This document shows positions 3,781 to 63,545 of a DNA stretch of 64,000 nt, piece after piece. A program made the position numbers and the translations under genes. This DNA comes from Patescibacteria group bacterium. GTDB lineage: Bacteria; Patescibacteriota; Microgenomatia; 0-14-0-10-38-17. Where the stretch lies: NCBI GenBank assembly GCA_050953885.1, contig JBMNNJ010000001.1:74132-138131 (forward strand), read 5' to 3'. Numbering within the stretch: position 1 is the first letter of the stretch; the number at the start of each line of letters is the position of its first letter. The notes below the pieces were generated by a model. The model was not told where the DNA came from. It saw only the letters and a program-made list of their open reading frames with translations, and did no database searches.

Positions 3781-4030
3781 TCGCCCCGCTCTGGCGGGGC
3801 TGAAATTAAGAAATTGAAAATGGGGAAAAATTTTGTTTCATTATTGCGGGCTGACCATAACTGTCATTCTGACGAAAGTCAGAACGAATAACTAAATTCA
3901 AAAGTTAAAATTTAAAAGTCAAAAGTACAAGTTAAAATTAAAAAGTAGAGCAAAAAGAACTTTTAACTTTTGACTTGCAATTTTGATCCGCCAGCTGGCG
4001 GATTGACTTTTGAATTTTGAATTATTTTTT
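3781..4030. repeat. intergenic repeat cluster: GC hairpin gccccgc-tctg-gcggggc (possible lysS terminator), gtcattctgacgaaagtcagaa hairpin, AT-rich k-mer element, ccgccagctggcgg palindrome
   Basis: Every module recurs elsewhere in the window; see findings. Confidence 0.7.
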
Positions 4031-16119: not shown

Positions 16120-16190
16120 TTTAATCCCGAGGTTCCTGCCTAATCAACCCCCGGAGTTGATTAGATTTGCAACCTCGGGAGCAATACTTA
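16120..16190. repeat. cccgaggtt ... ctaatcaacccccggagttgattag ... aacctcggg hairpin element
   Basis: Related copies at 25423-25475 and 35800-35920. Confidence 0.65.
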
Positions 16191-23907: not shown

Positions 23908-24049
23908 TGTTATAATAAAGAAAGTTAAATTGCTAAATTGCTAAGCAGTTTAACTATATTAACAAACTCAAAACTTAAATCGCAAAGATCAAAACCTAAC
24001 TCAAAGTTCAAAAACGTTTTTATGTGTTGGTTTTGATTTTTAAATTTGG

Positions 24050-24300
24050 TTTTGTCCCGCCATAGCGGGACCCCGTTGCGGCGGGGCATTTTGATCCGCC
24101 AGCTGGCCTTGTACCAGCACGGTACAGAGCTGACGGACAGGGTTCATTCCTGTAGCTGTCATTCCTGAACTAAATTCAGGACAGGCTCTGACGAAAGTCA
24201 GGATCTAAATGATTCTGAATCAAGTTCAGAATGACGCTAATCGTGGCCGTCATTCTGATGAATCCGCCAGCTTGCGGATCAAATCTGAAAGCTACCACGC
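24050..24300. repeat. composite cluster of GC palindromes and hairpin modules in the divergent rtcB/24455 intergenic region
   Basis: gtcccgccatagcgggac, ccgccagctgg (interrupted), tctgacgaaagtcagga, gattctgaatcaagttcagaatgacg, gatccgcaagctggcggattc. Confidence 0.75.
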
Positions 24301-24454
24301 AAAACTCAAATCTTAAAAATTACATATATTTCAGAAAGATTTAACATTTACCATTTGAGTTTTAAGTTTTCAAACTACAAGTTGCCTGCCGCTTTCTTTT
24401 TTGCTTTTTTGATTTAACGATTTAATGATTTGGTAATTTTTTGTTATCTTTATT

Positions 24455-25180: not shown

Positions 25181-25422
25181 TTGCTACATTACTCTTGCTA
25201 TTATTATCTTGCTATTATTATCTTGCTATTATTGTCTTGTTATTATTACAGGTCTAATATCGTCATCATCGCTAGTGACTTATTTAGGGGGCGATCGCCC
25301 CTATTTTAATTCCCTTTTAAATTTAAAAATTTTTAGTTAATTATTTTTCTTCTATATTTTTAAAAATATAGCGGTAAAATATAGGTGAGTCAGAAAAAAG
25401 CCAGGCGAGAAAATTTTTTTAT

Positions 25423-25475
25423 CCCGAGGTTTGAAGCTAATCAACTCCGGGGGTTAAATGGCTTCAAACCTCGGG
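25423..25475. repeat. perfect 15-bp stem hairpin cccgaggtttgaagc ... gcttcaaacctcggg with ctaatcaactccggggg loop
   Basis: Family also at 16120 and 35800-35920. Confidence 0.7.
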
Positions 25476-25623
25476 AGTTAGCTATAAAATAATTCCGGTG
25501 ATTATTTTATTTTGATTTCCTAATTTCGCGAGCGCAAGCGAGTTAATTTCTCAATTTCAGCCCCGTCAGGGCGGGACGAATTTCTAACTTCTAATTTTCT
25601 TTTTTTTATGTGTTAGAATAAAG

Positions 25624-26640: not shown

Positions 26641-27213
26641 ATGAATTTCAAAAAACTTAAGATTTCGGGGTTAATCTTGGTTGAGCCGGATGTTTTTGGT
26701 GACGAGCGGGGATTTTTTTTGGAATCTTATCATCAGAAAAAATTTACCGAGGAGGGAATAAGAGTTAATTTTGTTCAGGACAATCATTCTCGCTCTTCGC
26801 GGGGAGTTTTACGGGGTCTTCACTTTCAAAAAGCTCCCTTTGCCCAAGATAAATTAGTGCGCGTGGTGCGGGGGGAGGTTTTCGATGTTGCCGTTGATCT
26901 TCGGCCCGATTCCCCAACGTTAGGCCAGTGGGAAGCGGTGGTGCTTTCCGAAAAAAATAAAAAAATATTTTTTATTCCCCAAGGTTTTGCCCATGGCTTT
27001 CTGGCTCTAAGCGAAGTAGTTGATTTTGAGTATAAGGTGAGTAATTTTTATTCGCCTGAAAGCGAGATGGGAATTATTTTTGATGATCCCCGCATTAATA
27101 TTTCCTGGCCTTTAGTAAAAGAAGAGCTAATTTTATCAGCCAAAGACAAGGGTTGGCCGTTGTTTTCTCAAGTTAAAGATGAATTAAAGAAGATATGGGG
27201 AAAACAAAAATAA
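26641..27213 (+). CDS. rmlC: dTDP-4-dehydrorhamnose 3,5-epimerase
   Basis: Cupin fold; RGLHFQ; starts at the rmlB stop. Confidence 0.93.
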   Translation: MNFKKLKISGLILVEPDVFGDERGFFLESYHQKKFTEEGIRVNFVQDNHSRSSRGVLRGLHFQKAPFAQDKLVRVVRGEVFDVAVDLRPDSPTLGQWEAVVLSEKNKKIFFIPQGFAHGFLALSEVVDFEYKVSNFYSPESEMGIIFDDPRINISWPLVKEELILSAKDKGWPLFSQVKDELKKIWGKQK

Positions 27214-28085
27214 TAGGAACTGGCTTAAGCGGTTTGGTAGGCTCACGCTTGGCGGAAATTCTCCAAAATAACTACTCATTTATTGATTTTTCTCTTGAGA
27301 CGGGGGTGGATATTTTAGATATTAAGTCTTTAGAAAAGCATTTTTTAGAAAATAAAGAAGCAAAAGTGGTGATCCATTTGGCGGCCTTTACGGATACGAA
27401 TGCCGCCTGGAGCCAGCGGGGAGATAAAAGTGGCCTTTGTTATCGTCTAAATGTTTTGGGGACGGAAAATATTATCAAACTTTGTCAAGAATATGGCCGG
27501 TATTTAATTTACGTTTCTACCGACTTTGTTTTTTCCGGCCAAAAAGATGGTGTTTATACCGAGGAAGATACTCCCGATCCGATTGAGTGGTATGGGCAAA
27601 CAAAGCGGTGGGCGGAGGAAGCGGTTTTGGAAAGTAGTCTGCCGGCGGCGATTGTTCGTCTTTCCTATCCCTTCCGGGCTTTTTTCCCGAAAAAAACCGA
27701 TTTGATACGAAAGATAATTGAGGGTTTAAAAAATCAAACACTTTATCCTCTTTTTACCGATCAAATAATCACCCCTACTTTTATTGATGATTTTGCCAAG
27801 GGGATTGGTTTTTTCCTAAAAGAAAAGCCGGTTGGTATTTTTCATTTGGTGGGAGAAAACCACCTTTCCCCCTACGCGGTGGGGTTGGAAGTGGCGCGAA
27901 CTTTTGGTTTTGATTCGAAATTAGTGAAGAAGGGAAGTTTAAAGGAGTATGAGCAAAATGCTCCCGCTGGTTCGCGGCCATTCCAAAAAAATTTAGCTCT
28001 TGATAATCAAAAAATTACTTCTTTGGGGATAAAGATGCTTCCCTTTGCGGCTGCGCTCCAAAAGGTGAAAGAACAACTTAGCTAA
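27195..28085 (+). CDS. rmlD: dTDP-4-dehydrorhamnose reductase
   Basis: GxxGxxG N-terminus, YGQTK catalytic motif. Confidence 0.88.
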   Translation: MGKTKIIGTGLSGLVGSRLAEILQNNYSFIDFSLETGVDILDIKSLEKHFLENKEAKVVIHLAAFTDTNAAWSQRGDKSGLCYRLNVLGTENIIKLCQEYGRYLIYVSTDFVFSGQKDGVYTEEDTPDPIEWYGQTKRWAEEAVLESSLPAAIVRLSYPFRAFFPKKTDLIRKIIEGLKNQTLYPLFTDQIITPTFIDDFAKGIGFFLKEKPVGIFHLVGENHLSPYAVGLEVARTFGFDSKLVKKGSLKEYEQNAPAGSRPFQKNLALDNQKITSLGIKMLPFAAALQKVKEQLS

Positions 28086-34294: not shown

Positions 34295-35503
34295 CTAAAG
34301 ATAGGGTGTCCAGTCGCTTATAGACATGGTGTTAAAGCTGATAAAGCTTATGGCGTAAAGAAAAAGAGCCGGTAAAAGAAGAATGAAGGGAATTAAAAAT
34401 TGCTTCTTTTGAAAAAAATTTTCTCCACCTAAGATTAAAAAAGGCAGGGCGGGAATGAGGTAGCGGGCAATGTCGCGATGGGCCACAAAAATGAGGGAAA
34501 AGTAAAAAACAACCGGGAAAATAAAGAGAATATCAGTTTTATATTTTTGCCAAAGGAAAGAAAGAAGAATTCCCCCTAAAAGATAGTAAAGATAAACGTC
34601 TTCGAGCCAAAATGTTCCTACCCATTTCTCATTGAAATCAAAAACCTGAAATGGCGGCCAAAAAAGATGAATGTTGTCGCCGGTTTTAAAATAGGCCCAA
34701 AAATCGCCGGTGGTGATTTTATAGAGAGAGAAAACGCTGATAATGCCCAACGGCGTTAAAAGTATTGGCCAAAACTTCTTTAGTCCCTCTTTAATTTTCT
34801 TCTTATCTTTTAAGAGCGAAGAAGATTTTAAAACTTCAATCAAGCCCGCCAAACCCAGAGCGCCGGCTAAAAGCACCCCCGGGCTTTTAACGGTTTGGGA
34901 AAAAATCGCCATTAAGGCGCTTTTACCATAATTTCCTTTTTTGAAAAAGTAGATGGCGCTGATAATAAAAAACAAAAAAAGCGGTTCGGGGCTGGGAACA
35001 TTTTTAACCACCAACCAGCGGGCGGGGAAAAAGACAAAAAGAGAGGCTAGAAAAAGACTGGCTTTTTGTCTTTTGGTTACCAAGAGAAGGAGTTGGTAAA
35101 AAGCAAAGATAGCCGCAAGACTGGTAAGCTGAGTAACAAAAATGGCCGCATGAGGGAAATCAATTTTAGGAATTTGGGCGGCAAGCCAAATTAGGGCCGG
35201 GTAGGCGGGGAAATGAGCGGGGAAGTAGGCAGGCGGCAGGGTGTTGGGGAAAAGAGCCTCAATTTTTTGAGGATCATACCAAGTTTTGGCCACAATAATA
35301 TAATTCAGGCTGTCAAAATTAAGCAAAACGGTGGAGAAGTTAAATTTTTCCGGGTAGTTTAAGCCGAAAAATGATTCAAGATGAAAAACAAAGGGGAAAT
35401 AAAGAAGGGCGGCGGAAAGAAAAGAAACCAGCGCTAAAGTCCAAAAAGGATGAAGCAGGGCCAACTTGCCAAGGTGGGAAAAGAAATTCTTAATTTTGGC
35501 CAT
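34295..35503 (-). CDS. polytopic membrane protein, GT-C-like (paralog of 55417-56565)
   Basis: Shared N-terminal motif SLNYIIVAKTWY ... FPNT (compare FDGFHYLSIARGGYGY ... FFPLFP in 55417). Confidence 0.5.
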   Translation of the reverse strand: MAKIKNFFSHLGKLALLHPFWTLALVSFLSAALLYFPFVFHLESFFGLNYPEKFNFSTVLLNFDSLNYIIVAKTWYDPQKIEALFPNTLPPAYFPAHFPAYPALIWLAAQIPKIDFPHAAIFVTQLTSLAAIFAFYQLLLLVTKRQKASLFLASLFVFFPARWLVVKNVPSPEPLFLFFIISAIYFFKKGNYGKSALMAIFSQTVKSPGVLLAGALGLAGLIEVLKSSSLLKDKKKIKEGLKKFWPILLTPLGIISVFSLYKITTGDFWAYFKTGDNIHLFWPPFQVFDFNEKWVGTFWLEDVYLYYLLGGILLSFLWQKYKTDILFIFPVVFYFSLIFVAHRDIARYLIPALPFLILGGENFFQKKQFLIPFILLLPALFLYAISFISFNTMSISDWTPYL

Positions 35504-35559
35504 CGTCTTTTTTCTTTAGTATAGCAAAAATGATAAAATTGCTAAACTGTTATTTTGTT

Positions 35560-35930
35560 AAATTATGACACGACTAACAAGCCGTCATTCTGAACTCGAT
35601 TCAGAATCGTTGTTTAATGCCTAAAGAAATGATTCTGATTTTCATCAGGACAACGCTTTCGTTAGAATGACGGCGGGAGGAGTCAGGATGACGACAGCCG
35701 TGCCGTCATTCCGGACTTGATCCGGAATCTGTGTTATTACCAAGGAAAGATTCTGACTTTCGTCAGAATGACAGAGAAGCGCCAGAATGACAGTAAGGGA
35801 ATAATTCTGCCTAATCAACTCCGGGGACTAATCCCGAGGTTTGAAGCTAAAAAAGTCCCGAGGTTTGAAGGCTCGCCAACTCCGGGGGTTAAATAGCTTC
35901 AAACCTCGGGAAAATAAGCAGAAATGATAA
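35560..35930. repeat. large composite repeat cluster (hairpin modules in both orientations plus tandem cccgaggtttgaag hairpins)
   Basis: gccgtcattctgaactcgattcagaatcg, gattccggatcaagtccggaatgacgg, cccgaggtttgaagc x2, gcttcaaacctcggg. Confidence 0.75.
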
Positions 35931-35961
35931 GGGGAAATTTATGTTAAGATAATAAACAGCG

Positions 35962-37524
35962 ATGGCTAAATATAAAGAAAAATTTCTTCGTTGGGCTCCA
36001 TTTGTCTTACTGGTTTTTCTCTCGGCTTTCCTGCGTTTTTATAAGCTTGAGGATTTAACTACTTTTCTTGATGATCAGGGACGAGATGTTTTAAAAGCGG
36101 CCCAAATTATAAAAGAAAAAGATCTACCGTTTATTGGCCCTTTGGCCTCAATGGGGAATGTTTATTTAGGGCCTCTTTATTACTGGGCGATTACTCCCGT
36201 TCTTTGGCTTTTTGGCTTTAATCCGGTTGGGCCGGTGGTTTTGGTGGCTCTTTTGGGAGTGCTAACCAATATTTTGCTTTTTTTCTTTCTTTGGCGTTAT
36301 TTTGACAAAAAAAGCGCTTTTTTGGCTAGTTTTCTTTACGCTCTTTCGCCTTTAATTTTGCAAAACAGCCGTTTTTCCTGGAACCCCAATCCGGTGCCTC
36401 TTTTTACCCTGCTTTGGTTTCTCTTGATGTTAAAATTTTTTGATGAGGAGAAAGGGCGATGGGCCCTTGGGGCGGGGATTTGCTTGGGGATTCTTCTTCA
36501 GCTTCATTATGTTACCGGCTTGCTTTTATTATTCACCGGGGCGGCTTTATTATTTTGGCTGATTAAGAAAAGCCGCCAAGAAAGTTTTTCCCCAAAACTC
36601 TTGAAACCTTTAGGCTGGTTAATCTTAGGAGTTATTATTCCCCTCATTCCCTTTATTCTTTTTGAATTTAAAAATTATTTTCTTAACACCCGGGCGGCGT
36701 GGCAATTCCTTTTTGACGGTCATAAAGAAGAGCTTTTGGCAGAAAGTTTGTTAAGCCGCGTTTTTGCTTTACTTAATCGTTTTTTTCAGGAACTTTTGGG
36801 TCTTTCCCGCCCTTCCCCTCTGCCGCTGGCTTACTTTATTTTAACCGTTCTTTCTCTTTTCTTTGTGGGAGGGAAAAAATTGGGAAAAGAAAAAAAGAAA
36901 ATAATTTTTTCTTCTGCCGCGATTTTAGTTTTAACGCCGTTTTTGCTTTGTGGGGCGGTTGGGGGCGAAATTCATCTTCATTATATTGGCCTTCTTTATC
37001 CTTTTGTTTTTATTATTGTGGCGGCGGGAGATTATTTATGGCGTCGGGCGCGGTTTTGGCCGTTGGTAATTTTAAATAGCGCTCTTTTGCTTTTGGCCTG
37101 TTACCAAATGGGGAGTTGGGATTATCGGCAAATTATTACCGCTGACAGTAATCATCAGATAGAAAAAGCGAAGCTGACCGCCGAGTACATTAGCCAGGAA
37201 GCGGAGGATAAAAATATTTTCGTCGCTTCCCTCACCGGTTCTCCTTTTGCCTACCCGGCTCGCTATTTTCTTTATCTTCAGGATTTTACCGTCGATTCTT
37301 TACAGCCCTCATCTGTTTTTGCTGTTTGCTATGATCAACCTTGCCAACCGGAGAAAAGCATTCTTTGGGAATTAGCCCAATTTGGGATTTTAAAAACGGT
37401 AAGCGAGAAAGCGCTTCCTTATGGGGTGTGGGTGTATGAATTAAAAACTCAAATGTCAAGCTTAGAACTCAAATCTCAAAACGCAAATGTCAAATCTACA
37501 TGGCAAATGTTAAAACTTTTTTAA
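35962..37524 (+). CDS. polytopic membrane glycosyltransferase-like protein (GT-C; paralog of 62095-63459); last ~25 codons come from an AT-rich repeat element
   Basis: N-terminal motif FLDDQGRDV ... IGPLASMGNVYLGPLYYW; 520 aa. Confidence 0.55.
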   Translation: MAKYKEKFLRWAPFVLLVFLSAFLRFYKLEDLTTFLDDQGRDVLKAAQIIKEKDLPFIGPLASMGNVYLGPLYYWAITPVLWLFGFNPVGPVVLVALLGVLTNILLFFFLWRYFDKKSAFLASFLYALSPLILQNSRFSWNPNPVPLFTLLWFLLMLKFFDEEKGRWALGAGICLGILLQLHYVTGLLLLFTGAALLFWLIKKSRQESFSPKLLKPLGWLILGVIIPLIPFILFEFKNYFLNTRAAWQFLFDGHKEELLAESLLSRVFALLNRFFQELLGLSRPSPLPLAYFILTVLSLFFVGGKKLGKEKKKIIFSSAAILVLTPFLLCGAVGGEIHLHYIGLLYPFVFIIVAAGDYLWRRARFWPLVILNSALLLLACYQMGSWDYRQIITADSNHQIEKAKLTAEYISQEAEDKNIFVASLTGSPFAYPARYFLYLQDFTVDSLQPSSVFAVCYDQPCQPEKSILWELAQFGILKTVSEKALPYGVWVYELKTQMSSLELKSQNANVKSTWQMLKLF

Positions 37525-42024: not shown

Positions 42025-43482
42025 ATGAATAAAAATAGACGGCTTTTCTTTCTTGCTTTTTTGGGGGTGGCGGCTATTTTTCTGCTAATTTACCACGGTG
42101 CCTTAGATAACTATTTTTTTCAGGATGATTTTTATTTCTTGCGTCTTTCCCGCGCGGAAAGTTTTCTTGACTTTCTTAAATTTTTTAGCCCCTGGCACCA
42201 GCAGGGCTTTCCTGCTTATCGGCCCTTAGGCACTCAAGTTTATTTTTTCTTTGGCCAGCTTTTTCCCGCTTTTGCCTCGCCGTATATTATGCGCGGGATT
42301 TTATTTCTATTTCATTTTTTTAACTTTTTTCTTATTTTTAAAATTTTAAAAAAACTTCTTAAGAAAGATTGGTTGGCTTTAATTTTAGCCGCCCTTTATT
42401 TAAACGCGCCGCTTCATTTTTTAAGCCTTTATTATCTGGCTGCTTTCCAGCAGGTTTTGGCGGCCTTTTTCCAGCTTTTAGGCTTTTATCTTTATCTTAA
42501 AAACAAGAAAAAAGCAGTTTATTTTTGTTATTTAGGAGCGCTTTTGGCAAAAGAAACCGCCATTTTTTTTCCCGCTCTTTTGCTTATTTTTAAGACGCTT
42601 GTCTATTTTGACAAAAATAAGAGTTTTAAAAATATTAAAAGCGAGATTGGGGGGGAAAAACGCTATTGGCTTGGTTTCGTTTTTTTAGCTTTTGCCTACG
42701 CTTTGTTGCGATTATTGTCTTTTTCCCAGCCTCCGGGTGAGGAATACCGACTTTCTTTAACGCCAAAAACCTTCTTTTCTTCTCTGCGTTGGTATTTAAT
42801 TTGGCTCTTGGGAGCGCCGGAGACAATCATTAATTATGCTCAAGGAGGGATTAATTTTTCGGTAGCTAAATTTACTAATGATGCGGGGATTTCGGCCTAT
42901 TTTTTTGGCGGGCTCTTTTTAGCAGAGTTTATCGTTCTTTGTTTAATTTTAATAAATTTAGGCCGCAAAAAGAAAGGCCGCCGGCAGGTAGCTCTTTTTT
43001 TGCTTTTAGGGCTGGCGGCGATGATAATTTCTTTGGCTTCGGTAATTTTTATGCCCTATCACCGCTTTGCCCACTACCTTGATCTTGCTCTATTTTTATT
43101 TTTAGTTATTTTTGGGCTTCTTGTCAAGAGGGAAAAAGGACTAACGCTAACTTTAGCTTTTGTTTTTACTTTTTTGTTCTTAGCGAACGCTTTCTTTTGT
43201 GTTAGAATTGACGAGAAACTTCATTGGGCGCCGGCCCGCCCGAGAATAGCGGCAAAATACCAAGAATTTTTTAAGGATGAAGGGGTTTGCGATAAGAGGC
43301 AGGGAATTTATTTTATTGATGCCAAGTCTAATTCAGCAAAAGAAGTCGCCATCGCTCTCTCGTTTGCTGATGGCCCCCGCTATTTTTGTCAGAATTACGA
43401 TTTACCGGTTTTTTATCAGGGGTTAGTCGAACCAAACGAGAAAGAAAAGCAACAACTTTTAATAATTAGCAGCGGCAACTAA
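42025..43482 (+). CDS. polytopic membrane protein, probable GT-C glycosyltransferase
   Basis: FQDDFYFL and YRPLG motifs in the first loops. Confidence 0.4.
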   Translation: MNKNRRLFFLAFLGVAAIFLLIYHGALDNYFFQDDFYFLRLSRAESFLDFLKFFSPWHQQGFPAYRPLGTQVYFFFGQLFPAFASPYIMRGILFLFHFFNFFLIFKILKKLLKKDWLALILAALYLNAPLHFLSLYYLAAFQQVLAAFFQLLGFYLYLKNKKKAVYFCYLGALLAKETAIFFPALLLIFKTLVYFDKNKSFKNIKSEIGGEKRYWLGFVFLAFAYALLRLLSFSQPPGEEYRLSLTPKTFFSSLRWYLIWLLGAPETIINYAQGGINFSVAKFTNDAGISAYFFGGLFLAEFIVLCLILINLGRKKKGRRQVALFLLLGLAAMIISLASVIFMPYHRFAHYLDLALFLFLVIFGLLVKREKGLTLTLAFVFTFLFLANAFFCVRIDEKLHWAPARPRIAAKYQEFFKDEGVCDKRQGIYFIDAKSNSAKEVAIALSFADGPRYFCQNYDLPVFYQGLVEPNEKEKQQLLIISSGN

Positions 43483-43495
43483 TAAGACAATTTCT

Positions 43496-44995
43496 ATGGT
43501 TAAAAAAGAAAACGCTGATCAGGTTAAAGGGAGAGCGGTGAGGGGAACGCTTACCCTCACGGCGCGGCGGATTATTCTTAAGGGGATTGACCTTTTGGGG
43601 ATGATTTTTTTGGCCCGGCTTTTAACGCAGGAAGAGTTTGGTATTTTCGGGATTATTAACTTTATTGTTTTTACTCTTTTTGGCTTTTTGTCGGATATTG
43701 GCTTGGGCGCTTCTTTGATTCAAAAAAAGGAAAAGATTAAAAAAGACGATTTGGCAACCGTTTTCACCACTCAGTTGGTTTTAGTTTTAGTTTTAAATCT
43801 TTTGGTTTGGTTGCTTTCTCCTTATTTAGTAAAGGTTTATAATCTTTCCCCGGCCCATATTTGGCTTTTGCGAACGACGGCTTTCTGCCTAATTTTAACT
43901 TCTTTCAAAACAATTCCCTCGGTTTTACTGGAAAGGGAGCTTTTGTATGAGAAACTTTTAATTCCCGAAATAGCGGAAACTATTTCTTATAATATTTTGG
44001 CGGTTTTTTTGGCCTTTCGCGGCTTTGGGGTTTGGAGTTTAACCATTTCTCTTTTGGTGCGGACTTTTTTAGGGGCCCTTATTTTATTCTTTATTTCTCC
44101 TTGGCCAATTCGCCTAAAAATCAAGCGCGCTTCGCTTAAAAATCTTCTTTCTTTTGGGGTGCCTTATCAGCTTAATTCCTTTCTGTCGCTTTTAAAGGAT
44201 AATCTTACCCCCACCGTGATTGCCTTCTTTTATGGGCCGGCGGCGGTGGGATATGTTAATTTGGCGCAAAGTATTGCTTTTAAGCCGATGGAAATTACCA
44301 ACATTGTTAATCGCTTGGTTTTTCCCATTTTTTCCAAAATTCAAGATGATCGTGATCGGGTGGGCAGATGGTTGGAAAAAGGAGTACGGCTAATGGCCTA
44401 TTTATATTTCCCTCTTGTTTTGGGGCTTTTGGTTACCGCTCGACCAATTTTGACCTATATTTATGCCGACCGTTCCGATAAATGGCTGCCGGCATTATCT
44501 GCCCTTTATCCTTTTCTTTTAGGATCGTTGCCGGTGGTTTTTACCACCACCGCCACTAATGTAATTTACGCCTTAGGCCAAGCCAAAACTGTTTTAAGAG
44601 TAATGGTAATTTATACTTTAATTACGTGGGGAGTGGGCATTCCTTTAATTTTAAAAATTGGTTTTTCGGGTATTGCCTGGGCGAATGTGGTGGTGGGAAT
44701 TGTTAGCGTTATTTTAATCAATCATGAACTTAAAAAGGCAAAAATAAATTTTTCTCTTACGAAGGCTGTTGCTATCCCTTTTTTTTCTTCTCTTCTGATG
44801 GCTCTTTTTCTTTTACCAGCCGTCGCTTGGGTTAAAGGCATTCCCAGTCTTATAGGGATTGTTTTTCTTGGGGCATTTCTTTATTTTCTTTTTCTTTTCC
44901 TTTTTCTTCGGGGTAAAATAAAGGAAGAAGTTGCTTTAGTAAAAAGCCTTTTACCAAAATATGAAAGAAGTAAAGCCACAAAAGAGGAAAGATAA
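43496..44995 (+). CDS. Wzx-like oligosaccharide flippase (MOP superfamily polysaccharide biosynthesis protein)
   Basis: About 12 TM helices with a characteristic N-terminal region (ARLLTQEEFGIF). Confidence 0.75.
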   Translation: MVKKENADQVKGRAVRGTLTLTARRIILKGIDLLGMIFLARLLTQEEFGIFGIINFIVFTLFGFLSDIGLGASLIQKKEKIKKDDLATVFTTQLVLVLVLNLLVWLLSPYLVKVYNLSPAHIWLLRTTAFCLILTSFKTIPSVLLERELLYEKLLIPEIAETISYNILAVFLAFRGFGVWSLTISLLVRTFLGALILFFISPWPIRLKIKRASLKNLLSFGVPYQLNSFLSLLKDNLTPTVIAFFYGPAAVGYVNLAQSIAFKPMEITNIVNRLVFPIFSKIQDDRDRVGRWLEKGVRLMAYLYFPLVLGLLVTARPILTYIYADRSDKWLPALSALYPFLLGSLPVVFTTTATNVIYALGQAKTVLRVMVIYTLITWGVGIPLILKIGFSGIAWANVVVGIVSVILINHELKKAKINFSLTKAVAIPFFSSLLMALFLLPAVAWVKGIPSLIGIVFLGAFLYFLFLFLFLRGKIKEEVALVKSLLPKYERSKATKEER

Positions 44996-50399: not shown

Positions 50400-50710
50400 A
50401 CAATCTAAATGCAAAGCGCGATCCGCCAGCTGGCGGACAGGATCTACCGTTCTTTAGACATTAATAACGATTCTGAATCAAGTTCAGAATGACGCTAATC
50501 GTAACCGTCATCCTGACGAAAGTCAGGATCTTTCCTTGTCATTAACACAGATTCCGGATCAAGTCCGGAATGACGGTTTCCGAGTTCGTCATTCTGACGA
50601 ATTCGCCAGCGGGCGGATTAAACTTTAAAAAGTTTTAACATTTACCATGTAGTTTTGCCATTTGACATTTGCGTTTTGAGATTTGAGTTTGTTTTTCGTG
50701 TCCATTCGTT
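50400..50710. repeat. composite intergenic repeat cluster (palindrome, three hairpin modules, AT-rich element)
   Basis: gatccgccagctggcggacaggatc; gattctgaatcaagttcagaatgacg; catcctgacgaaagtcaggat; gattccggatcaagtccggaatgacgg. Confidence 0.8.
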
Positions 50711-50728: not shown

Positions 50729-53323
50729 ATGTCTTTTAGCAATGAAACAATGAAGCAGTCTAAGCCTCTTTTATCAATCATCATCGTTTCCTACAACACC
50801 CGGGAGCTTTTGGAAAAATGCCTTAACTCCGTGGTTAAATCATTAGCCGGCTCTAATCTTAAAAGCAACCAAGAAAAGATCCTGAACCAAGTTCAGGATG
50901 ACGCTAATCGCAACCGTCATCCTGACGATCCGCCAGCTGGCGGACAGGATCTGCCCTTGACCGAAATCATCGTTGTTGATAATAATTCCCGCGACGATTC
51001 GGTAGAAATGCTTCAAAATTTAAAATTGAAACTTGAAAATTCATTGAAAATTCAAAACTTAAAATTGAAAATTATTGTTAATAACGATAATCTTGGCTTT
51101 GCCAAGGCGGTTAATCAGGGAATTAAGAAAAGCCGAGGAGAATACTTGCTTCTTTTGAATTCCGACACGATTGTTCCTCCTCAAACTTTAGAAAAAATGA
51201 TTGAATTTGCCAGAAAGAAAAAAGACGCGGGCATTATTGCCCCCAAACTCTTAGATAAAAATGGAAAAACCTCCCAACCTTCCTGCTACCGTTTGCCGGC
51301 AATTAAGGGAGCCGTTAAAGAATTTTGGTTAGGGGAAAAAGGTGCTTTTGGAAAATATCTTCCCCGTGGCGGCAATCCGGTTAAGCCAGAAGCGGTGGTA
51401 GGGGCGGCGATGCTTATTCCCCGAGCCGTTTATGATGTGGTGGGCGAGTTTGACGAAAAATATTTTATGTATTATGAGGATTTAGACTATTGCCGCCGTG
51501 TTAGAGAAGCGGGATTTGCGGTTTATTATTTACCAACCGCTAAGATTATTCATTATCATGGTCAAAGCGGCCAAAAAGAGCCTCAAAAAGTTAATCGCCA
51601 TCTTATTGAAAGCAGTAAAAAATATCATGGCCGCCTAAAACATTTTTTCTTAAATGCCATCATTCGCCTTGGTCAGGCTAAAAAGTTTTTGCCGCTTATC
51701 CTTTTGGTTTTGGCAATGTTGGTCTGGTCGGTTCATCATTTATATTTTTTAAAACCTGCTTTTCCAAAAACCCATGATGGCCATTTTCACCTTATTCGTT
51801 TAGCTGAATTTGACCGATCTTTCAAAGCAGGTATTATTCCCCCTCGCTGGGCACCGGGTTTGGCCAATGGTTTGGGAGCGCCAGTTTTTAATTATTTTTA
51901 TCCCTTGGTTTATTACCTGGGAGAAGGATTTCATCTTTTGGGCTTTTCTTTTGCTTCCTCTCTTAAATTGGTGGCCGCTCTTTCTTGCTTTGCGGCTTTT
52001 TTCTTTAGCTTTCTTTTCTTTAAACTTTTTTTTGCTACCCTATCAAGTTTCTTGGGGGCAAGTTTAGTGGTTTATGCTCCCTACAGCTTTCTTAATCTTT
52101 TTGTGCGCGGAGAATTTCCAGAAATTTTGGCCCTTTGCCTTTTACCGGCAATTTTCTGGGCCACCACCAAGGCGGTTTTAAATAAAGAAAAAAACCGCCA
52201 TTTTCTTTTAGCCGCTCTTCCTTGGGCGTTGATAATTTTATCCCACAATATTATTGCCCTGCTAGCTACTGTCTGGTTGATAATTTTTTTATTTTTAGTT
52301 TTAATCAGGGATAGAAAAGCCGCTAAAAAAACAATTTTTATTTTTTTGTTATCGCTTGCTTTAAGCGCCTTTTTTTGGATACCGGCATTGGGAGAAATGA
52401 AATATGTTCATCTGGGTTATGATGAAGTTTTTTCCTGGTGGGACCATTTTCCCACTCTTAGGCAGTTAATTTATTCTCCTTGGGGGCATGGTTATTCTTA
52501 TCCGGGACAAAGCGATGAAATGTCTTTTCAAATTGGCTTACCCCATCTTTTTCTTTCCCTATCGGCAGGGATACTTCTTTTAATCCAGCTTTTCAAAGAC
52601 AAGAAAAATTTTTGGAAAAGCTGGAAAAATCTAGCCATTTTTTTCTTTGCCTTTTCTTCTTTTACCTTTATCTTTTTAATGAATCACCGCTCTTCTTTTT
52701 TCTGGCAAACGCTTCCTTTTCTTTCCCGGGTCCAGTTTCCGTGGCGGTTTTTGGGATTTTTAAATTTTTCTCTTTGTTTCTTAATTACTTTTTTCTTAGA
52801 ACAGCTTTTATCTTTTTCAAAAGAAAAAATCGCCTTGCCAGTTATTTTTCTTATTTTTATCGGAACATTTTTTGCTTATTTTGGTTATATCCGGCCGGAA
52901 AGTTATCTTACTCAAGAAGTAATCTTTAATTCAAATGAAGTGCGGGAAACCACTACCAATGCCAATGAAATTTTACCGATTTGGGCGCCAAAAGATAGTT
53001 ATCAAAATATTAATTTAACCAATACAATAGAGTGTAAAGAGTTTTCCTGCGAAACATCAACTGCCTTTAACCAAGAAAAAGAAGTTATTTTCAGAAAATT
53101 TTATTTTCCTTCTTGGCAGGGAAAAATTGATGACTTTCCTTTAAGGCTTTATCCTCAAGAAAAAACAGGCTTGATAGCCGCGCTGGTTCCGGCCGGAAAT
53201 CATCAGGTTAGGATAGAGTGGGGGAAAACTAATCTTGAAAGGGCGGCCGATTATATCAGTCTTGCTTCGCTTGTCTTTTTGTTTTCTTTTATTACGATCT
53301 TTAAAAAGAAAAAATTAACTTGA
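50729..53323 (+). CDS. fusion protein: N-terminal GT2 domain plus C-terminal large GT-C-like polytopic membrane domain (YfhO-like family)
   Basis: LSIIIVSYNTRE ... VVDNNSRDDS ... YYEDLDYCRR, then FPKTHDGHFHLIRL ... IPPRWAP ... GAPVFNYFYPLVYY and C-terminal FYFPSWQG. Confidence 0.8.
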   Translation: MSFSNETMKQSKPLLSIIIVSYNTRELLEKCLNSVVKSLAGSNLKSNQEKILNQVQDDANRNRHPDDPPAGGQDLPLTEIIVVDNNSRDDSVEMLQNLKLKLENSLKIQNLKLKIIVNNDNLGFAKAVNQGIKKSRGEYLLLLNSDTIVPPQTLEKMIEFARKKKDAGIIAPKLLDKNGKTSQPSCYRLPAIKGAVKEFWLGEKGAFGKYLPRGGNPVKPEAVVGAAMLIPRAVYDVVGEFDEKYFMYYEDLDYCRRVREAGFAVYYLPTAKIIHYHGQSGQKEPQKVNRHLIESSKKYHGRLKHFFLNAIIRLGQAKKFLPLILLVLAMLVWSVHHLYFLKPAFPKTHDGHFHLIRLAEFDRSFKAGIIPPRWAPGLANGLGAPVFNYFYPLVYYLGEGFHLLGFSFASSLKLVAALSCFAAFFFSFLFFKLFFATLSSFLGASLVVYAPYSFLNLFVRGEFPEILALCLLPAIFWATTKAVLNKEKNRHFLLAALPWALIILSHNIIALLATVWLIIFLFLVLIRDRKAAKKTIFIFLLSLALSAFFWIPALGEMKYVHLGYDEVFSWWDHFPTLRQLIYSPWGHGYSYPGQSDEMSFQIGLPHLFLSLSAGILLLIQLFKDKKNFWKSWKNLAIFFFAFSSFTFIFLMNHRSSFFWQTLPFLSRVQFPWRFLGFLNFSLCFLITFFLEQLLSFSKEKIALPVIFLIFIGTFFAYFGYIRPESYLTQEVIFNSNEVRETTTNANEILPIWAPKDSYQNINLTNTIECKEFSCETSTAFNQEKEVIFRKFYFPSWQGKIDDFPLRLYPQEKTGLIAALVPAGNHQVRIEWGKTNLERAADYISLASLVFLFSFITIFKKKKLT
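50878..50951 (+). repeat. 74-75 bp hairpin repeat element inserted in-frame inside the GT2 domain of the 50729 gene (encodes KILNQVQDDANRNRHPDDPPAGGQD)
   Basis: Near-identical to intergenic copies at 50468-50545 and 53400-53545: gatcctgaaccaagttcaggatgacgctaatcgcaaccgtcatcctgacgatccgccagctggcggacaggatc. Confidence 0.8.
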
Positions 53324-53369: not shown

Positions 53370-53620
53370 CCGTATAATTTTGGTACGGGACTTGACGAGT
53401 TCGTCATCCTGACGAAAGTCAGGATCTGCCTTTGGCATTAACACAGATTCCGGATCAAGTCCGGAATGACGGTTTCCGAGTTTGTCGTTCTGACTCCTCT
53501 TACCGTCATTCTGACAATCCGCCAGCTGGCGGACAGGATCTGCCTCTTTCTGACGATAAGGCAGATTATAAGACAGATTCTGAATTAAATTCAGCATGAC
53601 GACCAGGGGATTATTTATGT
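53370..53620. repeat. composite repeat cluster (same modules as 50400-50640)
   Basis: The 90-aa minus-strand ORF here is simply a translation of the repeats. Confidence 0.8.
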
Positions 53621-62117: not shown

Positions 62118-63459
62118 TTGGTCTTGCCTAACTTTGTTGGCAGTTTTGGTTATTTTTCTTTTTCTTCGTTTTTACCAACTGCCCCAACGAACCATTTTTA
62201 ATTGGGATCAGGAAAGGGATGCTTTTGAAGTGCAAAAAATTCTTTCTGGCGACCCAAGCCTTATCGGCCCGCGTGTTTTGGGGCCGCAAGGGTTTTTCTT
62301 AGGCCCTTATTTTTACTATCTTTTAGCGCCATTTTATTTCCTCACCGGCGGCCACCCCCAAGCGATTGTTTATTTCCTAATCGTCTTGAACCTTGTTTTT
62401 TTCTTGGCCGCCTATTTGATTGTTAAAAAAATCTGGGGAGAAAAAACCGCCCTAATCTTTCTTTTTCTTTGGACGATTAATCCGGCGGCAATAGAAACGG
62501 TGGCCTGGAATCCGACCCTAATCCCCTTAATGATTATTTTAATCTGGTTTACCCTTTCTCAAAAAAGTTATTTTTGGTTGGGCTTAAGCCTTTCTTTGGC
62601 GATTAATTTCCATTTTCAGGCAGTTTTTTTGGCGCCTTTTATTTTACTTTTTTTGTTTTGGCAAAGAGAGCTTTCGGGAAAAAATTTAGGCAAAGCGGCG
62701 TTGGGATTTTTTTTACCCTTTATTCCCTTGCTTCTTTTTGACTTACGACATAACTTCTTAAATTTTAAGCTTTTGGGGCAGTTTATAAAAGAGCGAGGCG
62801 AGGGGGGCAATTTTTTGGCTTGGCGGCCGGTGCTGGCTAATTTTTTAACTGGCTTTTGGGGGGAGGAAAAAATTTGGCTCCCCTTGACTTTAGCGCTTGT
62901 TCTTTTAACCCTGTGGCTTGTTAAAAAGCAAAAAAATTATTTTTCCAAAAACTTTCTTAAAAGTCTTCTTTTTCTTTACCCCATTGTTTTGTTGGGTTTT
63001 AGCATTTATGGCCAAAGACCGTCGGAATATTATTTTAATTTTCTTTTACCCTTTTTTATTTTAGTTTTGGCCTTATTTATCAGCTCTTTTGGCAAATTAA
63101 AACGGCTGTTTTTTTTGCTTCTTTTTATTCTTCTCTGGTTGCCAAAAACGATGGAAAAAACCGTTCCTGTTTCGGTTAGTTTGTTGGCGAAAGACAAAGC
63201 AATTGCTTATTTGGTAGAAAAAAACGGGAAAATACCGGCGGAAGTTCGCTATCAAACTCCTTTAGGCGAGGAAGCAGGTTTTTCCTATTTGCTAAATTAC
63301 TACGGCTTGGAAAAAGCGACCGAAGGAGAAAGAAAAATCTGGCTGGTAAGCATTCCGCCGGCAGAAGAAAGCCAAGCTTTTGGTGGAGTGGGAGTAAAAT
63401 TAATAGGAGAGGAAAAAAATTTGCTTATTAACAACGATTCTGAATCAAGTTCAGAATGA
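62095..63459 (+). CDS. polytopic membrane glycosyltransferase-like protein (paralog of 35962); stop codon supplied by a repeat element
   Basis: FNWDQERDAFEV ... IGPRVLGPQGFFLGPYFYY. Confidence 0.5.
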   Translation: MKLKGKLNWSCLTLLAVLVIFLFLRFYQLPQRTIFNWDQERDAFEVQKILSGDPSLIGPRVLGPQGFFLGPYFYYLLAPFYFLTGGHPQAIVYFLIVLNLVFFLAAYLIVKKIWGEKTALIFLFLWTINPAAIETVAWNPTLIPLMIILIWFTLSQKSYFWLGLSLSLAINFHFQAVFLAPFILLFLFWQRELSGKNLGKAALGFFLPFIPLLLFDLRHNFLNFKLLGQFIKERGEGGNFLAWRPVLANFLTGFWGEEKIWLPLTLALVLLTLWLVKKQKNYFSKNFLKSLLFLYPIVLLGFSIYGQRPSEYYFNFLLPFFILVLALFISSFGKLKRLFFLLLFILLWLPKTMEKTVPVSVSLLAKDKAIAYLVEKNGKIPAEVRYQTPLGEEAGFSYLLNYYGLEKATEGERKIWLVSIPPAEESQAFGGVGVKLIGEEKNLLINNDSESSSE

Positions 63460-63545
63460 CTGTAACCGCAGTCGTCATTCTAACGATCCGCTCGCTGGCG
63501 GACAGAATCTGTTTTGATTCTGAATCAAATTCAGAATAACGCTCT
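63425..63545. repeat. composite hairpin-module cluster
   Basis: gattctgaatcaagttcagaatgac; gtcgtcattctaacgatccgctcgctggcggacagaatc; gattctgaatcaaattcagaataacg. Confidence 0.75.

What the first reader, a model, noticed from the sequence alone, without database searches (positions are those of the whole stretch)
35560..35930. About 370-bp mosaic of hairpin modules in both orientations plus tandem cccgaggtttgaagc hairpins
This region holds hairpin 1 in reverse orientation (cgattctgaatcgagttcagaatgacggc read from the minus strand), the ccgga variant, several gtcattctgac / gtcagaatgac half-sites, and a distinct family of 14-15 bp inverted repeats (cccgaggtttgaagc ... gcttcaaacctcggg) with the ctaatcaactccggggg core. 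That last family is also at 16120 and 25423. It is the largest repeat pile-up in the window. It lies between two divergent GT-C genes at the edge of the glycosylation island and is a likely hotspot for recombination or gene-cassette exchange.
Basis: partly seen in the sequence, partly recalled or inferred. Interest (0 to 1): 0.5.

Follow-up and report, generated by a model that had tools for sequence, protein, structure and literature searches.

The report
Mosaic of Ssn-nuclease hairpin repeats
The 370-bp stretch is a real pile-up of two kinds of small DNA hairpin repeats between two divergent cell-envelope genes of a Shapirobacteria-like (CPR) bacterium; the main kind is the local version of the widespread NTS/SRM hairpins recognised by small GIY-YIG single-strand DNA nucleases (Ssn), so it is a recombination-prone repeat array of a known kind rather than a new system.

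Summary
Window 35584-35791 carries four complete hairpin modules and two partial "heads". All have the form GTC-palindrome-C and they sit in both orientations. Window 35807-35911 carries one full copy, one inner fragment and one solo arm of a second, 55-nt nested palindrome.

Family 1 has the head, tail and fold of the Neisseria NTS/dRS3 repeat, the "Ssn-related motif" (SRM) of Chenal et al. 2025. Identical modules flank single-domain GIY-YIG (Ssn-type) genes in Patescibacteria contigs L116 and L127. They also flank one in L131, a contig that carries both repeat families. The window itself has no Ssn gene. The published SRM search string misses these AT-richer variants.

Family 2 occurs only on similar-GC (0.36-0.46) contigs, several of them close relatives. 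It has no Rfam match and no identifiable partner gene.

The locus is hypervariable. A 95%-identical relative lacks one exact 101-nt multi-module unit. Others lack family 1 entirely. The inner part of family 2 is flipped between relatives.

"Recombination hotspot" is supported. "Gene-cassette exchange here", "two GT-C genes" and "island edge" are not. Verdict: new member of a known kind, with moderate interest.

The parts
34295..35503 (-). Left flanking gene (402 aa membrane protein). Not demonstrably GT-C.
   Evidence: ORF. No Pfam hit even at E<=10. Sub-threshold NF046093 cell-surface glycopolymer family match, 36 bits against a cutoff of 150.
35518..35545 (-). Predicted core promoter of the left gene (TTAGCA-16-TATACT with TG).
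   Evidence: The TAGTATA(A/G)CA motif is kept in L136, L126 and L125.
35584..35608 (+). Family-1 (SRM-type) module, type A: GTC-ATTCTGAA-CTCGA-TTCAGAAT-C.
   Evidence: The same CTCGA-loop variant lies directly upstream of the Ssn gene in L127.
35631..35671 (-). Family-1 module, type D. This is type B with a 17-nt internal extra hairpin: GTCATTCTAACGAAAG-CGTTG-TCCTGATGAAAATCAGAATC.
   Evidence: The same extended type recurs in L131 at 672-712.
35672..35772 (.). 101-nt multi-module unit: orphan head, A(CCGG), 19-nt spacer, B. Present in the window, absent in relative L136. Its reverse complement is a copy of the units at 53403-53504 and 50507-50600.
35672..35692 (-). Orphan head GTCATCCTGAC + TCCTCCCGCC (no 3' arm).
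   Evidence: The same head-plus-TCCTCYYRCC unit is at 53484-53504.
35705..35729 (+). Family-1 module, type A, CCGG variant (compensatory stem change).
35749..35772 (-). Family-1 module, type B: GTC-ATTCTGAC-GAAA-GTCAGAAT-C. Same geometry as the Neisseria NTS (8-bp stem, GMAV-type loop).
35773..35791 (-). Orphan head GTCATTCTGG + CGCTTCTCT.
   Evidence: Conserved in L136 and L126.
35807..35831 (.). Family-2 fragment (inner hairpin part, CTGCCTAATCAACTCCGGGGACTAA).
35832..35847 (.). Family-2 solo left arm TCCCGAGGTTTGAAGC.
   Evidence: Also present in L136 and L126.
35856..35911 (.). Family-2 full copy (56 nt; nested palindrome; 15-bp perfect arms).
   Evidence: The inner 23 nt are inverted in L136 relative to L126 and the window.
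35924..35953 (+). Predicted core promoter of the GT-C gene. GTTAAGATAATAAA is conserved in all relatives.
35962..37524 (+). Right flanking gene, GT-C family (PMT_2).
16125..16180 (.). Family-2 copy (CCTGCC subtype). It is the junction of a synteny break in L185.
25422..25476 (.). Family-2 copy upstream of the rmlB-like gene. The inner part is flipped and 3 nt shorter in L128.
24158..24285 (.). Family-1 cluster. Together with the surrounding block 23932-24369 it is absent from relative L128.
50469..50623 (.). Family-1 cluster: A(-), B(+), A-CCGG(-), C-like(+).
50878..50951 (.). Family-1 pair A(-)+C(+) inside the GT2/PTPS_related ORF 50729-53323. It is read in frame as ILNQVQDDANRNRHPDDPPAGGQD.
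53403..53600 (.). Family-1 cluster (5 heads).
63436..63540 (.). Family-1 cluster: A(-), C(+), A(-).
3863..3885 (+). Isolated type-B-like family-1 module.

Best explanation
**What it is.** The region is the variable spacer between two conserved, divergent core promoters. Two families of DNA hairpin repeats fill it.

**Family 1 (35584-35791).** This is a mosaic of Ssn-related motifs (SRM), the Patescibacteria counterpart of the Neisseria NTS/dRS3 repeats that build NIME arrays.
- Each module is oriented: a 5' (C)GTC, an 8-bp-stem palindrome beginning AT(T/C)C, a 4-5-nt loop (or an inserted inner hairpin), and a C directly after the palindrome.
- As single-stranded DNA each module folds into a hairpin with a 4-nt 5' tail.
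- By analogy with SsnA, a small single-domain GIY-YIG nuclease (Ssn) encoded elsewhere in the genome would bind that hairpin on one strand only. It would nick a few nucleotides 5' of the head.

**Likely consequences.**
- ssDNA carrying such arrays (incoming transforming DNA, replication or repair intermediates) is cut there. That would modulate recombination around the neighbouring envelope and glycosylation genes.
- The arrays grow and shrink in whole multi-module units, by recombination between modules and possibly by Ssn-dependent copying.

**Family 2 (35807-35911).** This is a separate 55-nt nested-palindrome element, seen only on similar-GC contigs, several of them close relatives. It has no known partner enzyme. 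It comes and goes at intergenic sites upstream of envelope genes, its inner segment flips between its arms, and it sits at synteny breakpoints.

**Shown:** sequence anatomy, stem covariation, the Ssn-SRM gene association in related genomes, and structural polymorphism between relatives.

**Inferred:** cleavage by an Ssn in this organism, any effect on transformation, and the mechanism of spread.
For: **1. Same head, tail and fold as the NTS.**
- The NTS is CGTCATTCCCGCGMAVGCGGGAATCYRG. In Neisseria the 3 nt 5' of the palindrome govern cleavage and the C after it governs binding.
- All complete window modules are GTC-palindrome-C.
- They fold like the NTS: 4-nt tail, 8-bp stem, 4-5-nt loop.
- Type B has the NTS spacing and a GAAA loop that fits GMAV.

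**2. Enrichment.** 12 observed against 0.59 expected; 23 against 1.57.

**3. Stem covariation.** In 126 type-A copies from at least 120 genome loci of many phyla, the three variable stem pairs are Watson-Crick in 119, 125 and 123 of 126. About 65 would be expected if the positions were independent. The search pattern did not force pairing.

**4. Co-occurrence in other genomes.** Type A sits in arrays with canonical ATTCCCGCG(C/A)AGGCGGGAAT hairpins. Exact type B is present in Sphingomonas and Sphingobium, and Sphingomonas is named as SRM-rich in the paper.

**5. Gene association.**
- Single-domain GIY-YIG genes (PF01541, 94-105 aa) are flanked by a (+) module upstream and a (-) module downstream in L116 and L127 (type A; Patescibacteria MAG OFTM163) and in L030 (related A-like hairpins; Lutibacter).
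- L131 carries a family-2 copy and 13 family-1 heads, with the same module types and spacers as the window. It encodes such a gene (96 aa, 56% identical to P0079) embedded in mosaics on both sides.

**6. Protein conservation.** The protein family is about 60% identical across phyla. That fits a conserved DNA target.

**7. Dynamics like NIME arrays.**
- A 101-nt unit indel against L136.
- Whole-cluster presence or absence against L126, L125 and L128.
- Multi-module units with conserved spacers at three window loci.

**8. Position.** The array lies between predicted promoters that are conserved in relatives. This argues for a DNA-level rather than an RNA-level element.

**9. Family 2.**
- About 27 copies, 20 distinct sequences, on 0.36-0.46 GC contigs.
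- Strong ssDNA hairpin, z about -7 to -8.
- An 81-nt filled site in L141 where the window has an empty one.
- An exact reverse-complement inner segment between L136 and L126.
Against: - No Ssn gene lies in the 64-kb window (profile search, best E = 1.1). The source genome could not be inspected, so the partner enzyme is inferred from related contigs.
- The published degenerate SRM string gives 0 matches in the window. It matches only the GC-richest type-A variant elsewhere: 36 of 137.
- I could not confirm by sequence that the GIY-YIG proteins found here belong to CDD family cd10448, or align them to Neisseria SsnA.
- The Neisseria work showed that changing the palindrome sequence abolishes SsnA activity. 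Cleavage of these variants would need a cognate enzyme of different specificity.
- Nothing here tests natural transformation in this organism.
- The relatives are short metagenome contigs. Some junctions (L126 position 75; L185) could be assembly chimeras at repeats.
- Family 2 has no demonstrated link to Ssn or to any enzyme.
Confidence: 0.77

Rival explanations
1. REP/BIME- or REPIN-type elements, made and moved by a RAYT (IS200/IS605-like Y1 transposase) rather than by a GIY-YIG nuclease.
For: - The look is BIME-like: a mosaic of oriented palindromes in alternating orientation.
- Inverted doublets with conserved spacers occur at several loci: B-19 nt-A three times and A-13 nt-B/C four times. 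This resembles REPIN doublets.
Against: - The conserved head is GTC-AT, not the GTAG-type head that I recall from the REP literature.
- No Y1_Tnp or any other transposase was found in the 51 window ORFs of at least 100 aa that were scanned against Pfam.
- The genes seen flanked by identical modules are GIY-YIG genes.
Confidence: 0.05
2. RNA-level elements: transcription terminators, attenuators or mRNA-stabilising hairpins that regulate the flanking glycosylation genes.
For: - Two modules score as terminator-like (hairpin followed by a T-rich tail).
- Family-2 copies lie 35-190 nt upstream of envelope genes.
- Competing alternative pairings exist between neighbouring modules.
Against: - The array sits between two divergent predicted promoters, so it is probably untranscribed.
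- Modules occur in both orientations and inside a coding sequence.
- The same 25-mer occurs in unrelated contexts across many phyla.
- Whole clusters are dispensable in relatives at 93-95% identity.
- There is no Rfam family.
- The family-2 inner segment flips orientation.
- SsnA does not act on RNA.
Confidence: 0.07
3. Passive debris. The pile-up arose by local tandem duplication and replication slippage at hairpins, with no dedicated enzyme and no function.
For: - The region contains a roughly 120-nt imperfect tandem duplication (D1, D4 and D6).
- The 101-nt indel is bounded by a 16-nt direct repeat, as expected for slippage or unequal recombination.
Against: - The head, the tail and the stem pairing are conserved with compensatory changes across phyla.
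- Identical modules bracket Ssn genes.
- The same multi-module unit occurs at distant loci. This needs dispersal, not only local slippage.
Confidence: 0.07
4. Integron-like attC or cassette-recombination sites that mediate exchange of glycosyltransferase cassettes.
For: - The elements are imperfect palindromes between genes of a variable glycosylation region.
- Gene content differs between relatives: rmlC/rmlD are absent in L128, and L125 has extra genes.
Against: - No integrase or recombinase was found among the 51 ORFs of at least 100 aa scanned.
- By eye, from my recollection of attC sites, the modules lack the attC R''/R' core sites.
- The rmlC/D gene-content difference is not bounded by these repeats.
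- Both flanking genes at this locus are kept in L125 and L136.
Confidence: 0.02

Closest known systems
NTS / Ssn-related motifs (SRM) with SsnA GIY-YIG ssDNA nucleases (Chenal et al. 2025, Nat Commun, PMC11893778)
   Same: - Oriented hairpin with a (C)GTC head, a palindrome beginning ATTC and ending GAAT, and a C directly after it.
- Same ssDNA fold.
- Mostly intergenic and clustered.
- Identical modules flank small single-domain GIY-YIG genes on both sides in related genomes.
   Different: - The inner stem is AT-richer (TGAA, TGAC or CGGA instead of CCGC), so the published search string fails.
- There are extra module types with an inserted inner hairpin (C and D).
- The host is a CPR bacterium.
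- No ssn gene lies in the window.
- No biochemical test exists for these variants.
Neisserial intergenic mosaic elements (NIME: dRS3 repeats flanking RS elements; PMC1797815)
   Same: - Arrays of short palindromes separated by recurring spacer families.
- They lie next to surface-structure genes.
- Repeat number and array length differ between syntenic arrays of related strains.
   Different: - The exact dRS3 motif ATTCCC-N8-GGGAAT is absent.
- Spacers here are 12-19 nt rather than 50-150 nt.
- The phylum is different.
REP / BIME / REPIN elements with RAYT transposases
   Same: - Oriented palindromes with a conserved 5' head.
- Inverted doublets and mosaic clusters.
- The hypothesis of a domesticated ssDNA-hairpin enzyme. 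This parallel is drawn in the Ssn paper itself.
   Different: - The head sequence differs.
- The associated gene is GIY-YIG, not a Y1 HUH transposase.
- No RAYT was found.
Rickettsia palindromic elements (from my own knowledge; not checked here)
   Same: Palindromic repeats that can sit in frame inside protein-coding genes, as at window 50878-50951.
   Different: They are longer (about 100-150 bp) and unrelated in sequence. Only one in-gene case is seen here.
MITEs and Correia-type elements (comparison for family 2 only)
   Same: - Short non-coding element with perfect terminal inverted repeats.
- Presence/absence polymorphism.
- Located just upstream of genes.
   Different: - Only 55 nt long.
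- No target-site duplication is seen.
- No related transposase was found.
- The inner segment flips between orthologous copies.

Membership tests
Ssn-related motif (SRM/NTS) repeats | Oriented semi-palindrome of 20-50 nt that folds as an ssDNA hairpin | tested here: met
   The modules are 24-41 nt. The folded A, B and C types give an 8-bp stem (6-bp outer stem in C) and a 4-5-nt loop or inner hairpin.
Ssn-related motif (SRM/NTS) repeats | Conserved three nucleotides (GTC) directly 5' of the palindrome. These determine cleavage in Neisseria. | tested here: met
   Every complete module starts GTC-AT.
Ssn-related motif (SRM/NTS) repeats | Cytosine directly 3' of the palindrome. This determines binding in Neisseria. 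| tested here: met
   All 11 family modules found by the GTC-palindrome-C scan end in ...AT-C.
Ssn-related motif (SRM/NTS) repeats | Match to the published degenerate search string HGTCWYN(0-2)YYVSBRHN(0-5)WNVSBRGN(0-2)RNCYNB | tested here: not met
   There are 0 matches in the window. Elsewhere the string accepts only the ATCCCGGA variant of the same hairpin, 36 of 137 copies. The failure is at the S (G/C) positions of the inner stem.
Ssn-related motif (SRM/NTS) repeats | An ssn gene (small single-domain GIY-YIG) flanked by the motif on both sides, somewhere in genomes that carry the repeats | tested here: inconclusive
   This is met in L116, L127 (Patescibacteria) and L030. It is also met in L131, which carries both repeat families with the same spacers as the window. 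It is not met within the window. The rest of the source genome was not available.
Ssn-related motif (SRM/NTS) repeats | The associated protein belongs to CDD family cd10448 and is homologous to Neisseria SsnA | not testable with these tools
   Only indirect support is available. The proteins are single-domain PF01541 and 94-105 aa long. In L030 I counted by eye conserved Tyr, Tyr and Glu residues one position offset from SsnA Y6, Y17 and E64. No SsnA sequence or CDD model was available.
Ssn-related motif (SRM/NTS) repeats | Strand-specific cleavage of ssDNA, but not dsDNA or RNA, by the cognate Ssn | not testable with these tools
   This needs biochemistry.
Ssn-related motif (SRM/NTS) repeats | Many copies, mostly intergenic and clustered | tested here: met
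   There are about 24 heads in 64 kb, in 7 clusters. Two heads lie inside one ORF.
NIME (dRS3 arrays) | dRS3 motif ATTCCC-N8-GGGAAT | tested here: not met
   0 matches.
NIME (dRS3 arrays) | Arrays whose repeat number differs between syntenic loci of relatives | tested here: met
.
REP/BIME/REPIN-RAYT | RAYT (Y1 transposase) gene associated with the repeats | tested here: not met
   No Y1_Tnp hit among the 51 window ORFs scanned. The genes flanked by identical modules are GIY-YIG genes. The whole genome was not available.
REP/BIME/REPIN-RAYT | Inverted doublets copied as units | tested here: met
   The B-spacer-A doublet occurs three times and the A-spacer-B/C doublet four times, with conserved spacers. 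This is a resemblance in behaviour, not membership.
MITE (for family 2) | Terminal inverted repeats plus a target-site duplication and a related autonomous element | tested here: not met
   Terminal inverted repeats are present: at least 10 bp perfect (15-16 bp in full copies). The filled site (L141) against the empty site (window) shows an 81-nt difference with no duplication. No recurrent neighbouring gene was found.
Integron attC sites | Integron integrase nearby and R''/R' core sites | tested here: not met
   No integrase in the window. Core sites are absent on inspection of the sequences.
Known RNA families (Rfam 15) | Score at or above a family's gathering threshold | tested here: not met
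   Only a tRNA in the whole window. At permissive thresholds only generic hairpin (miRNA-precursor) matches appear, far below threshold.

The most novel reading that the evidence does not exclude
The multi-module SRM units (for example the 101-nt unit 35672-35772) may be non-autonomous mobile elements copied by the Ssn GIY-YIG nuclease itself. That would be a GIY-YIG-driven, ssDNA-hairpin-based transposition system analogous to RAYT/REPIN. New units would land next to existing heads, so arrays would grow by nesting, and units could insert in frame into genes. The separate 55-nt family-2 element would then be a new kind of self-flipping hairpin element that marks the boundaries of a 27-kb glycosylation segment.
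Probability: 0.2. Interest if true: 0.75.

Novelty: new member of a known kind. Interest (0 to 1): 0.4.

Why it matters
- **Taxonomic reach.** The finding places the recently described Ssn/NTS system in a Candidate Phyla Radiation bacterium. The array sits inside its large cell-envelope glycosylation region.
- **Under-counting.** The published motif definition misses the AT-richer variants of the same hairpin. Surveys based on it will under-count SRMs.
- **Natural experiments.** Several filled-against-empty comparisons are available: a 101-nt unit indel, whole-array presence or absence, and an in-frame array inside a glycosyltransferase that is longer in a relative. These bear on an open question left by the Ssn paper, namely how these repeats multiply and whether Ssn is a domesticated mobile-element enzyme.
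- **Possible physiological link.** CPR bacteria are thought to depend on DNA uptake (my own knowledge, not tested here). An ssDNA-restricting system next to surface-glycan genes would be worth testing.
- **Family 2.** This element is a small unexplained item: its inner segment flips between relatives and no partner gene was found.

Tried and rejected
- **Rfam.** At gathering thresholds over the whole window, and at permissive thresholds on two sub-regions, nothing real was found.
- **tRNA/tmRNA scan.** One unrelated tRNA-Glu.
- **Literature search by raw sequence strings.** Only unrelated primers and shRNAs.
- **Published SRM string.** 0 hits in the window.
- **Simple GIY-YIG regular expression on six-frame translations.** It found L116 and L030 but missed L131. 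I replaced it with a profile built from 120 homologues.
- **Supplementary data of the Ssn paper.** Not held.
- **A 2026 preprint that mentions SsnA.** Could not be read.
- **Viral contigs.** Types A and B and family 2 are rare there, so there is no phage signal.
- **Recurrent partner gene next to family-2 copies.** Only orthologous neighbourhoods were found.
- **Terminator reading.** The T-run lies 5' and the A-run 3' of family-2 hairpins, which is the wrong way round.
- **tRNA T-arm resemblance of GAGGTTCGAA.** Considered and dropped as coincidental.
- **Strand bias of heads.** 12 (+) and 12 (-), so no bias. Type A is mostly (-) and types B and C mostly (+), because composite units share one orientation outside this locus.
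Full report
**1. The observation**

The stretch 35504-35961 is the intergenic region between two divergent ORFs: 34295-35503 (-) and 35962-37524 (+). It contains two repeat families.

Family 1 consists of oriented modules. Each starts GTCAT(T/C)C(T/C)G(A/G) and ends (T/C)C(A/G)G(A/G)ATC.

| Coordinates | Strand | Module |
|---|---|---|
| 35584-35608 | + | type A |
| 35631-35671 | - | extended type B ("type D") |
| 35672-35692 | - | orphan head |
| 35705-35729 | + | type A with compensatory CCGG stem |
| 35749-35772 | - | type B |
| 35773-35791 | - | orphan head |

Family 2 occupies three pieces: an inner fragment at 35807-35831, a solo arm at 35832-35847, and a full 56-nt copy at 35856-35911. 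Further copies lie at 16125-16180 and 25422-25476.

The enrichment is far beyond chance.
- GTCATTCTGA with at most 1 mismatch: 23 hits against 1.57 expected.
- GTC-palindrome-C with a stem of at least 7 bp: 12 against 0.59.
- The family-2 arm: 5 against 0.18.
- ssDNA folding of the region: z = -7.9.

Family-1 clusters also lie at 3863, 24158-24285, 50469-50623, 50878-50951, 53403-53600 and 63436-63540. The cluster under study is the largest.

**2. Context**

The best relatives of the right-hand gene are Candidatus Shapirobacteria proteins: 79% identity to an NCBI MAG, and 93% to an unnamed ENA protein.
- The right-hand gene is GT-C (PMT_2).
- The left-hand gene has no Pfam hit and only a sub-threshold glycopolymer-family match.
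- Glycosylation genes (rml genes, GT2, GT4, GT-C, a flippase) run from about 21.7 kb to beyond 63 kb. The locus is therefore inside the island, not at its edge.
- No transposase, integrase or RAYT was found in the 51 ORFs of at least 100 aa that I scanned.

Predicted core promoters lie at 35518-35545 (-) and 35924-35953 (+). Both coincide with short sequences that relatives conserve. The repeats fill the variable spacer between them.

**3. What family 1 is**

The hits span Sphingomonadaceae, Bacteroidota, Patescibacteria, Dehalococcoidia, Spirochaetes, Elusimicrobia, Omnitrophota and others.

The pattern left three stem pairs free to mispair. They are nonetheless Watson-Crick in 119, 125 and 123 of 126 copies, against about 65 expected under independence. 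The hairpin is therefore under selection.

In those loci type A sits beside ATTCCCGCG(C/A)AGGCGGGAAT hairpins, and exact type B occurs in Sphingomonas and Sphingobium.

ATTCCC-N8-GGGAAT is the Neisseria dRS3 repeat. A literature search on dRS3 led to Chenal et al. 2025 (PMC11893778). Their main findings are:
- dRS3 is the core of a longer oriented repeat, NTS (CGTCATTCCCGCGMAVGCGGGAATCYRG).
- NTS-like "Ssn-related motifs" flank homologues of a 94-aa single-domain GIY-YIG protein, SsnA, across phyla.
- SsnA binds the hairpin only as ssDNA and only on one strand, and cuts a few nucleotides upstream.
- The three nucleotides 5' of the palindrome matter most for cleavage.
- The C after the palindrome matters most for binding.
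- In N. meningitidis the system lowers transformation by NTS-bearing DNA.

The window modules keep exactly those determinants: GTC before the palindrome, AT(T/C)C...G(A/G)AT at its ends, and C after it. They fold like the NTS. Type B has the NTS spacing and a GAAA loop that fits GMAV.

They differ from the NTS in the inner stem, which is AT-richer. For that reason the published degenerate string gives no hit in the window. Elsewhere it accepts only the GC-richest variant of the same hairpin (36 of 137 copies).

**4. The gene link**

The window has no Ssn gene. A profile built from 120 homologues scores nothing better than E = 1.1 against its six-frame ORFs. Related genomes do show the link.
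- In the Patescibacteria MAG OFTM163, two GIY-YIG genes (L116:5359-5676 and L127:4001-4312; PF01541) each have a type-A module in (+) orientation just upstream and one in (-) orientation just downstream. L127 has the CTCGA-loop variant seen at window 35584. A Lutibacter gene (L030) has the same layout, with related A-like hairpins.
- Contig L131 is the most telling case. It carries a family-2 copy and 13 family-1 heads, with the same module types (A, B, C, D) and the same spacers as the window (GCTAATCGTAAG, GGCACGGCTGTC). It encodes a 96-aa GIY-YIG protein (217-507; Pfam E = 6e-14; 56% identical to the L116 protein) with mosaics on both sides.

This is the NTS-ssnA-NTS architecture of the paper, in what appears to be the same lineage.

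The protein family is about 60% identical between phyla. That fits the near-identical DNA target.

I could not align these proteins to Neisseria SsnA or to CDD cd10448. That step rests on domain content, size and catalytic-residue positions.

**5. Dynamics at this locus**

Metagenome contigs from close relatives cover parts of the window.

| Contig | Identity | State at the locus |
|---|---|---|
| L136 | about 95% nt | Collinear except for the exact 101-nt unit 35672-35772, which it lacks. The unit is bounded by the 16-nt direct repeat CTTTCGTYAGAATGAC. |
| L126 | about 93% | No family-1 module in the spacer. Keeps the family-2 tandem. Joins a copy of the 35782-35921 block to the interior of the left gene with GCAG microhomology. 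This is a rearrangement or an assembly chimera. |
| L133 | 88% | A single family-2 copy of another subtype. |
| L125 | 79% | Neither family here. Has family-1 modules between two genes that are 12 nt apart in the window. |
| L128 | 90-94% | Lacks the whole 23932-24369 block that contains another family-1 cluster. |

The 101-nt unit missing from L136 is, in reverse complement, a copy of the multi-module units at 53403-53504 and 50507-50600, spacer included.

Arrays therefore change in whole units between near-identical genomes, as described for NIME arrays.

The 101-nt indel fits unequal recombination or slippage between two B-type modules. It is also compatible with insertion of a unit next to an existing head. 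The data cannot separate these.

**6. Family 2**

A metagenome scan with the 10-nt arms returned 64 loci. About 27 are true copies, all on contigs of 0.36-0.46 GC, and several of these contigs overlap the window at 88-95% identity.

The consensus, oriented by its loop, is TCCCGAGGTT-[6]-TA[3]-AACCCCCGGAGTT-GATTAG-[6]-AACCTCGGGA. Copies look like chimeras of two archetypes: TGAAGC/TATTT halves and CCTGCC/TAATC halves.

It folds strongly as ssDNA (-17 to -19 kcal/mol; z = -7 to -8). It has no Rfam counterpart.

Its behaviour between relatives is as follows.
- L141 has a copy (81 nt including flanks, no target duplication) between genes 42025-43482 and 43496-44995, where the window has a 13-nt gap.
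- L185 joins the homologue of gene 43496 directly, through a family-2 copy, to the homologue of gene 14878-16056. L152 joins it to yet other DNA. The 27-kb segment 16181-43482 is therefore bracketed by family-2 sites. These are short contigs, and joins at a 55-nt repeat could be chimeric.
- At two orthologous sites the inner segment is inverted between relatives. At one of them the inversion is exact, 23 of 23 nt.

No recurrent neighbouring gene was found. I treat family 2 as a separate, lineage-restricted hairpin element of unknown mechanism.

**7. Mechanism, rivals and verdict**

The best-supported reading is an SRM (NTS-type) mosaic plus a second hairpin element, sitting in a promoter-to-promoter spacer. 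An Ssn nuclease encoded elsewhere is the inferred partner. ssDNA cleavage, and its effect on recombination, are inferred from the Neisseria work and not shown here.

Rivals:
- RAYT-driven REP/BIME: wrong head, and no RAYT found.
- RNA regulatory hairpins: the region is probably untranscribed, modules lie in both orientations, and the array is dispensable in relatives.
- Passive slippage debris: cannot explain pan-phylum conservation or dispersal of units.
- attC-like cassette sites: no integrase and no core sites.

"Gene-cassette exchange" at this locus, "two GT-C genes" and "edge of the island" are not supported.

Novelty: a new member of a known kind, with moderate interest. The interest comes from the CPR host, the blind spot in the published motif definition, the clean unit-level polymorphisms, the in-frame array in a glycosyltransferase, and the unexplained family 2.

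Noticed in passing
window 50878-50951 (inside ORF 50729-53323): A family-1 pair A(-)+C(+) lies inside the GT2 domain of a GT2/PTPS_related protein and is read in frame (…K-ILNQVQDDANRNRHPDDPPAGGQD-L…). Ordinary homologues lack the insert. P0319 (72% identical) carries a longer in-frame array at the same loop. P0199 has a K/Q-rich insert there instead.
   Followed up: partly
window 3885-4002, 23930-24040, 24300-24390, 25018-25164, 50610-50700; L125 9810-9935; L126 2413-2541: A third dispersed repeat: AT-rich palindromic arrays of the type AAAAGTCAAAAGTTAAAATT, often next to family-1 modules. In L125 it fills the intergenic region orthologous to the locus under study.
   Followed up: no
window 16181-43482; L141 154-208; L185 447-602; L152 951-1005: Relatives carry a family-2 copy just upstream of the flippase gene (the window 43496 homologue). 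L185 joins it straight to the M23-peptidase gene (the window 14878-16056 homologue). About 27 kb of the glycosylation region is therefore missing or relocated there, with family-2 copies at both boundaries. These are short contigs, so chimeric assembly is possible.
   Followed up: partly
window 35856-35911 vs L136 3013-3067 vs L126 644-697; window 25422-25476 vs L128 3023-3074: The inner roughly 23 nt of the family-2 element is reverse-complemented between orthologous copies in close relatives. Between L136 and L126 the inversion is exact.
   Followed up: partly
window 26641-28085: The rmlC- and rmlD-like genes are absent from the 92-94% identical relative L128. The junction is not at a hairpin repeat.
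   Followed up: no
window 25148-25170, 50420-50444, about 24093-24108: TCCGCCAGCTGGCGGA hairpins (the inner hairpin of type C) also occur without the GTCAT head. Similar stand-alone hairpins are in L107, and a longer type-C-like module is in L068.
   Followed up: no
L127 4001-4312: One Ssn gene of the Patescibacteria MAG carries an in-frame 9-aa insert (CPPVPDRTG) encoded by a GC-rich hairpin-like sequence.
   Followed up: no
Genome-contig loci L005-L124: The 25-nt type-A hairpin is nearly identical across more than ten phyla. Its translation gives recurrent peptides (ILNQVQDD, IPDQVRND) that are likely to appear in spurious short ORF calls. The point about ORF calls is my inference.
   Followed up: no
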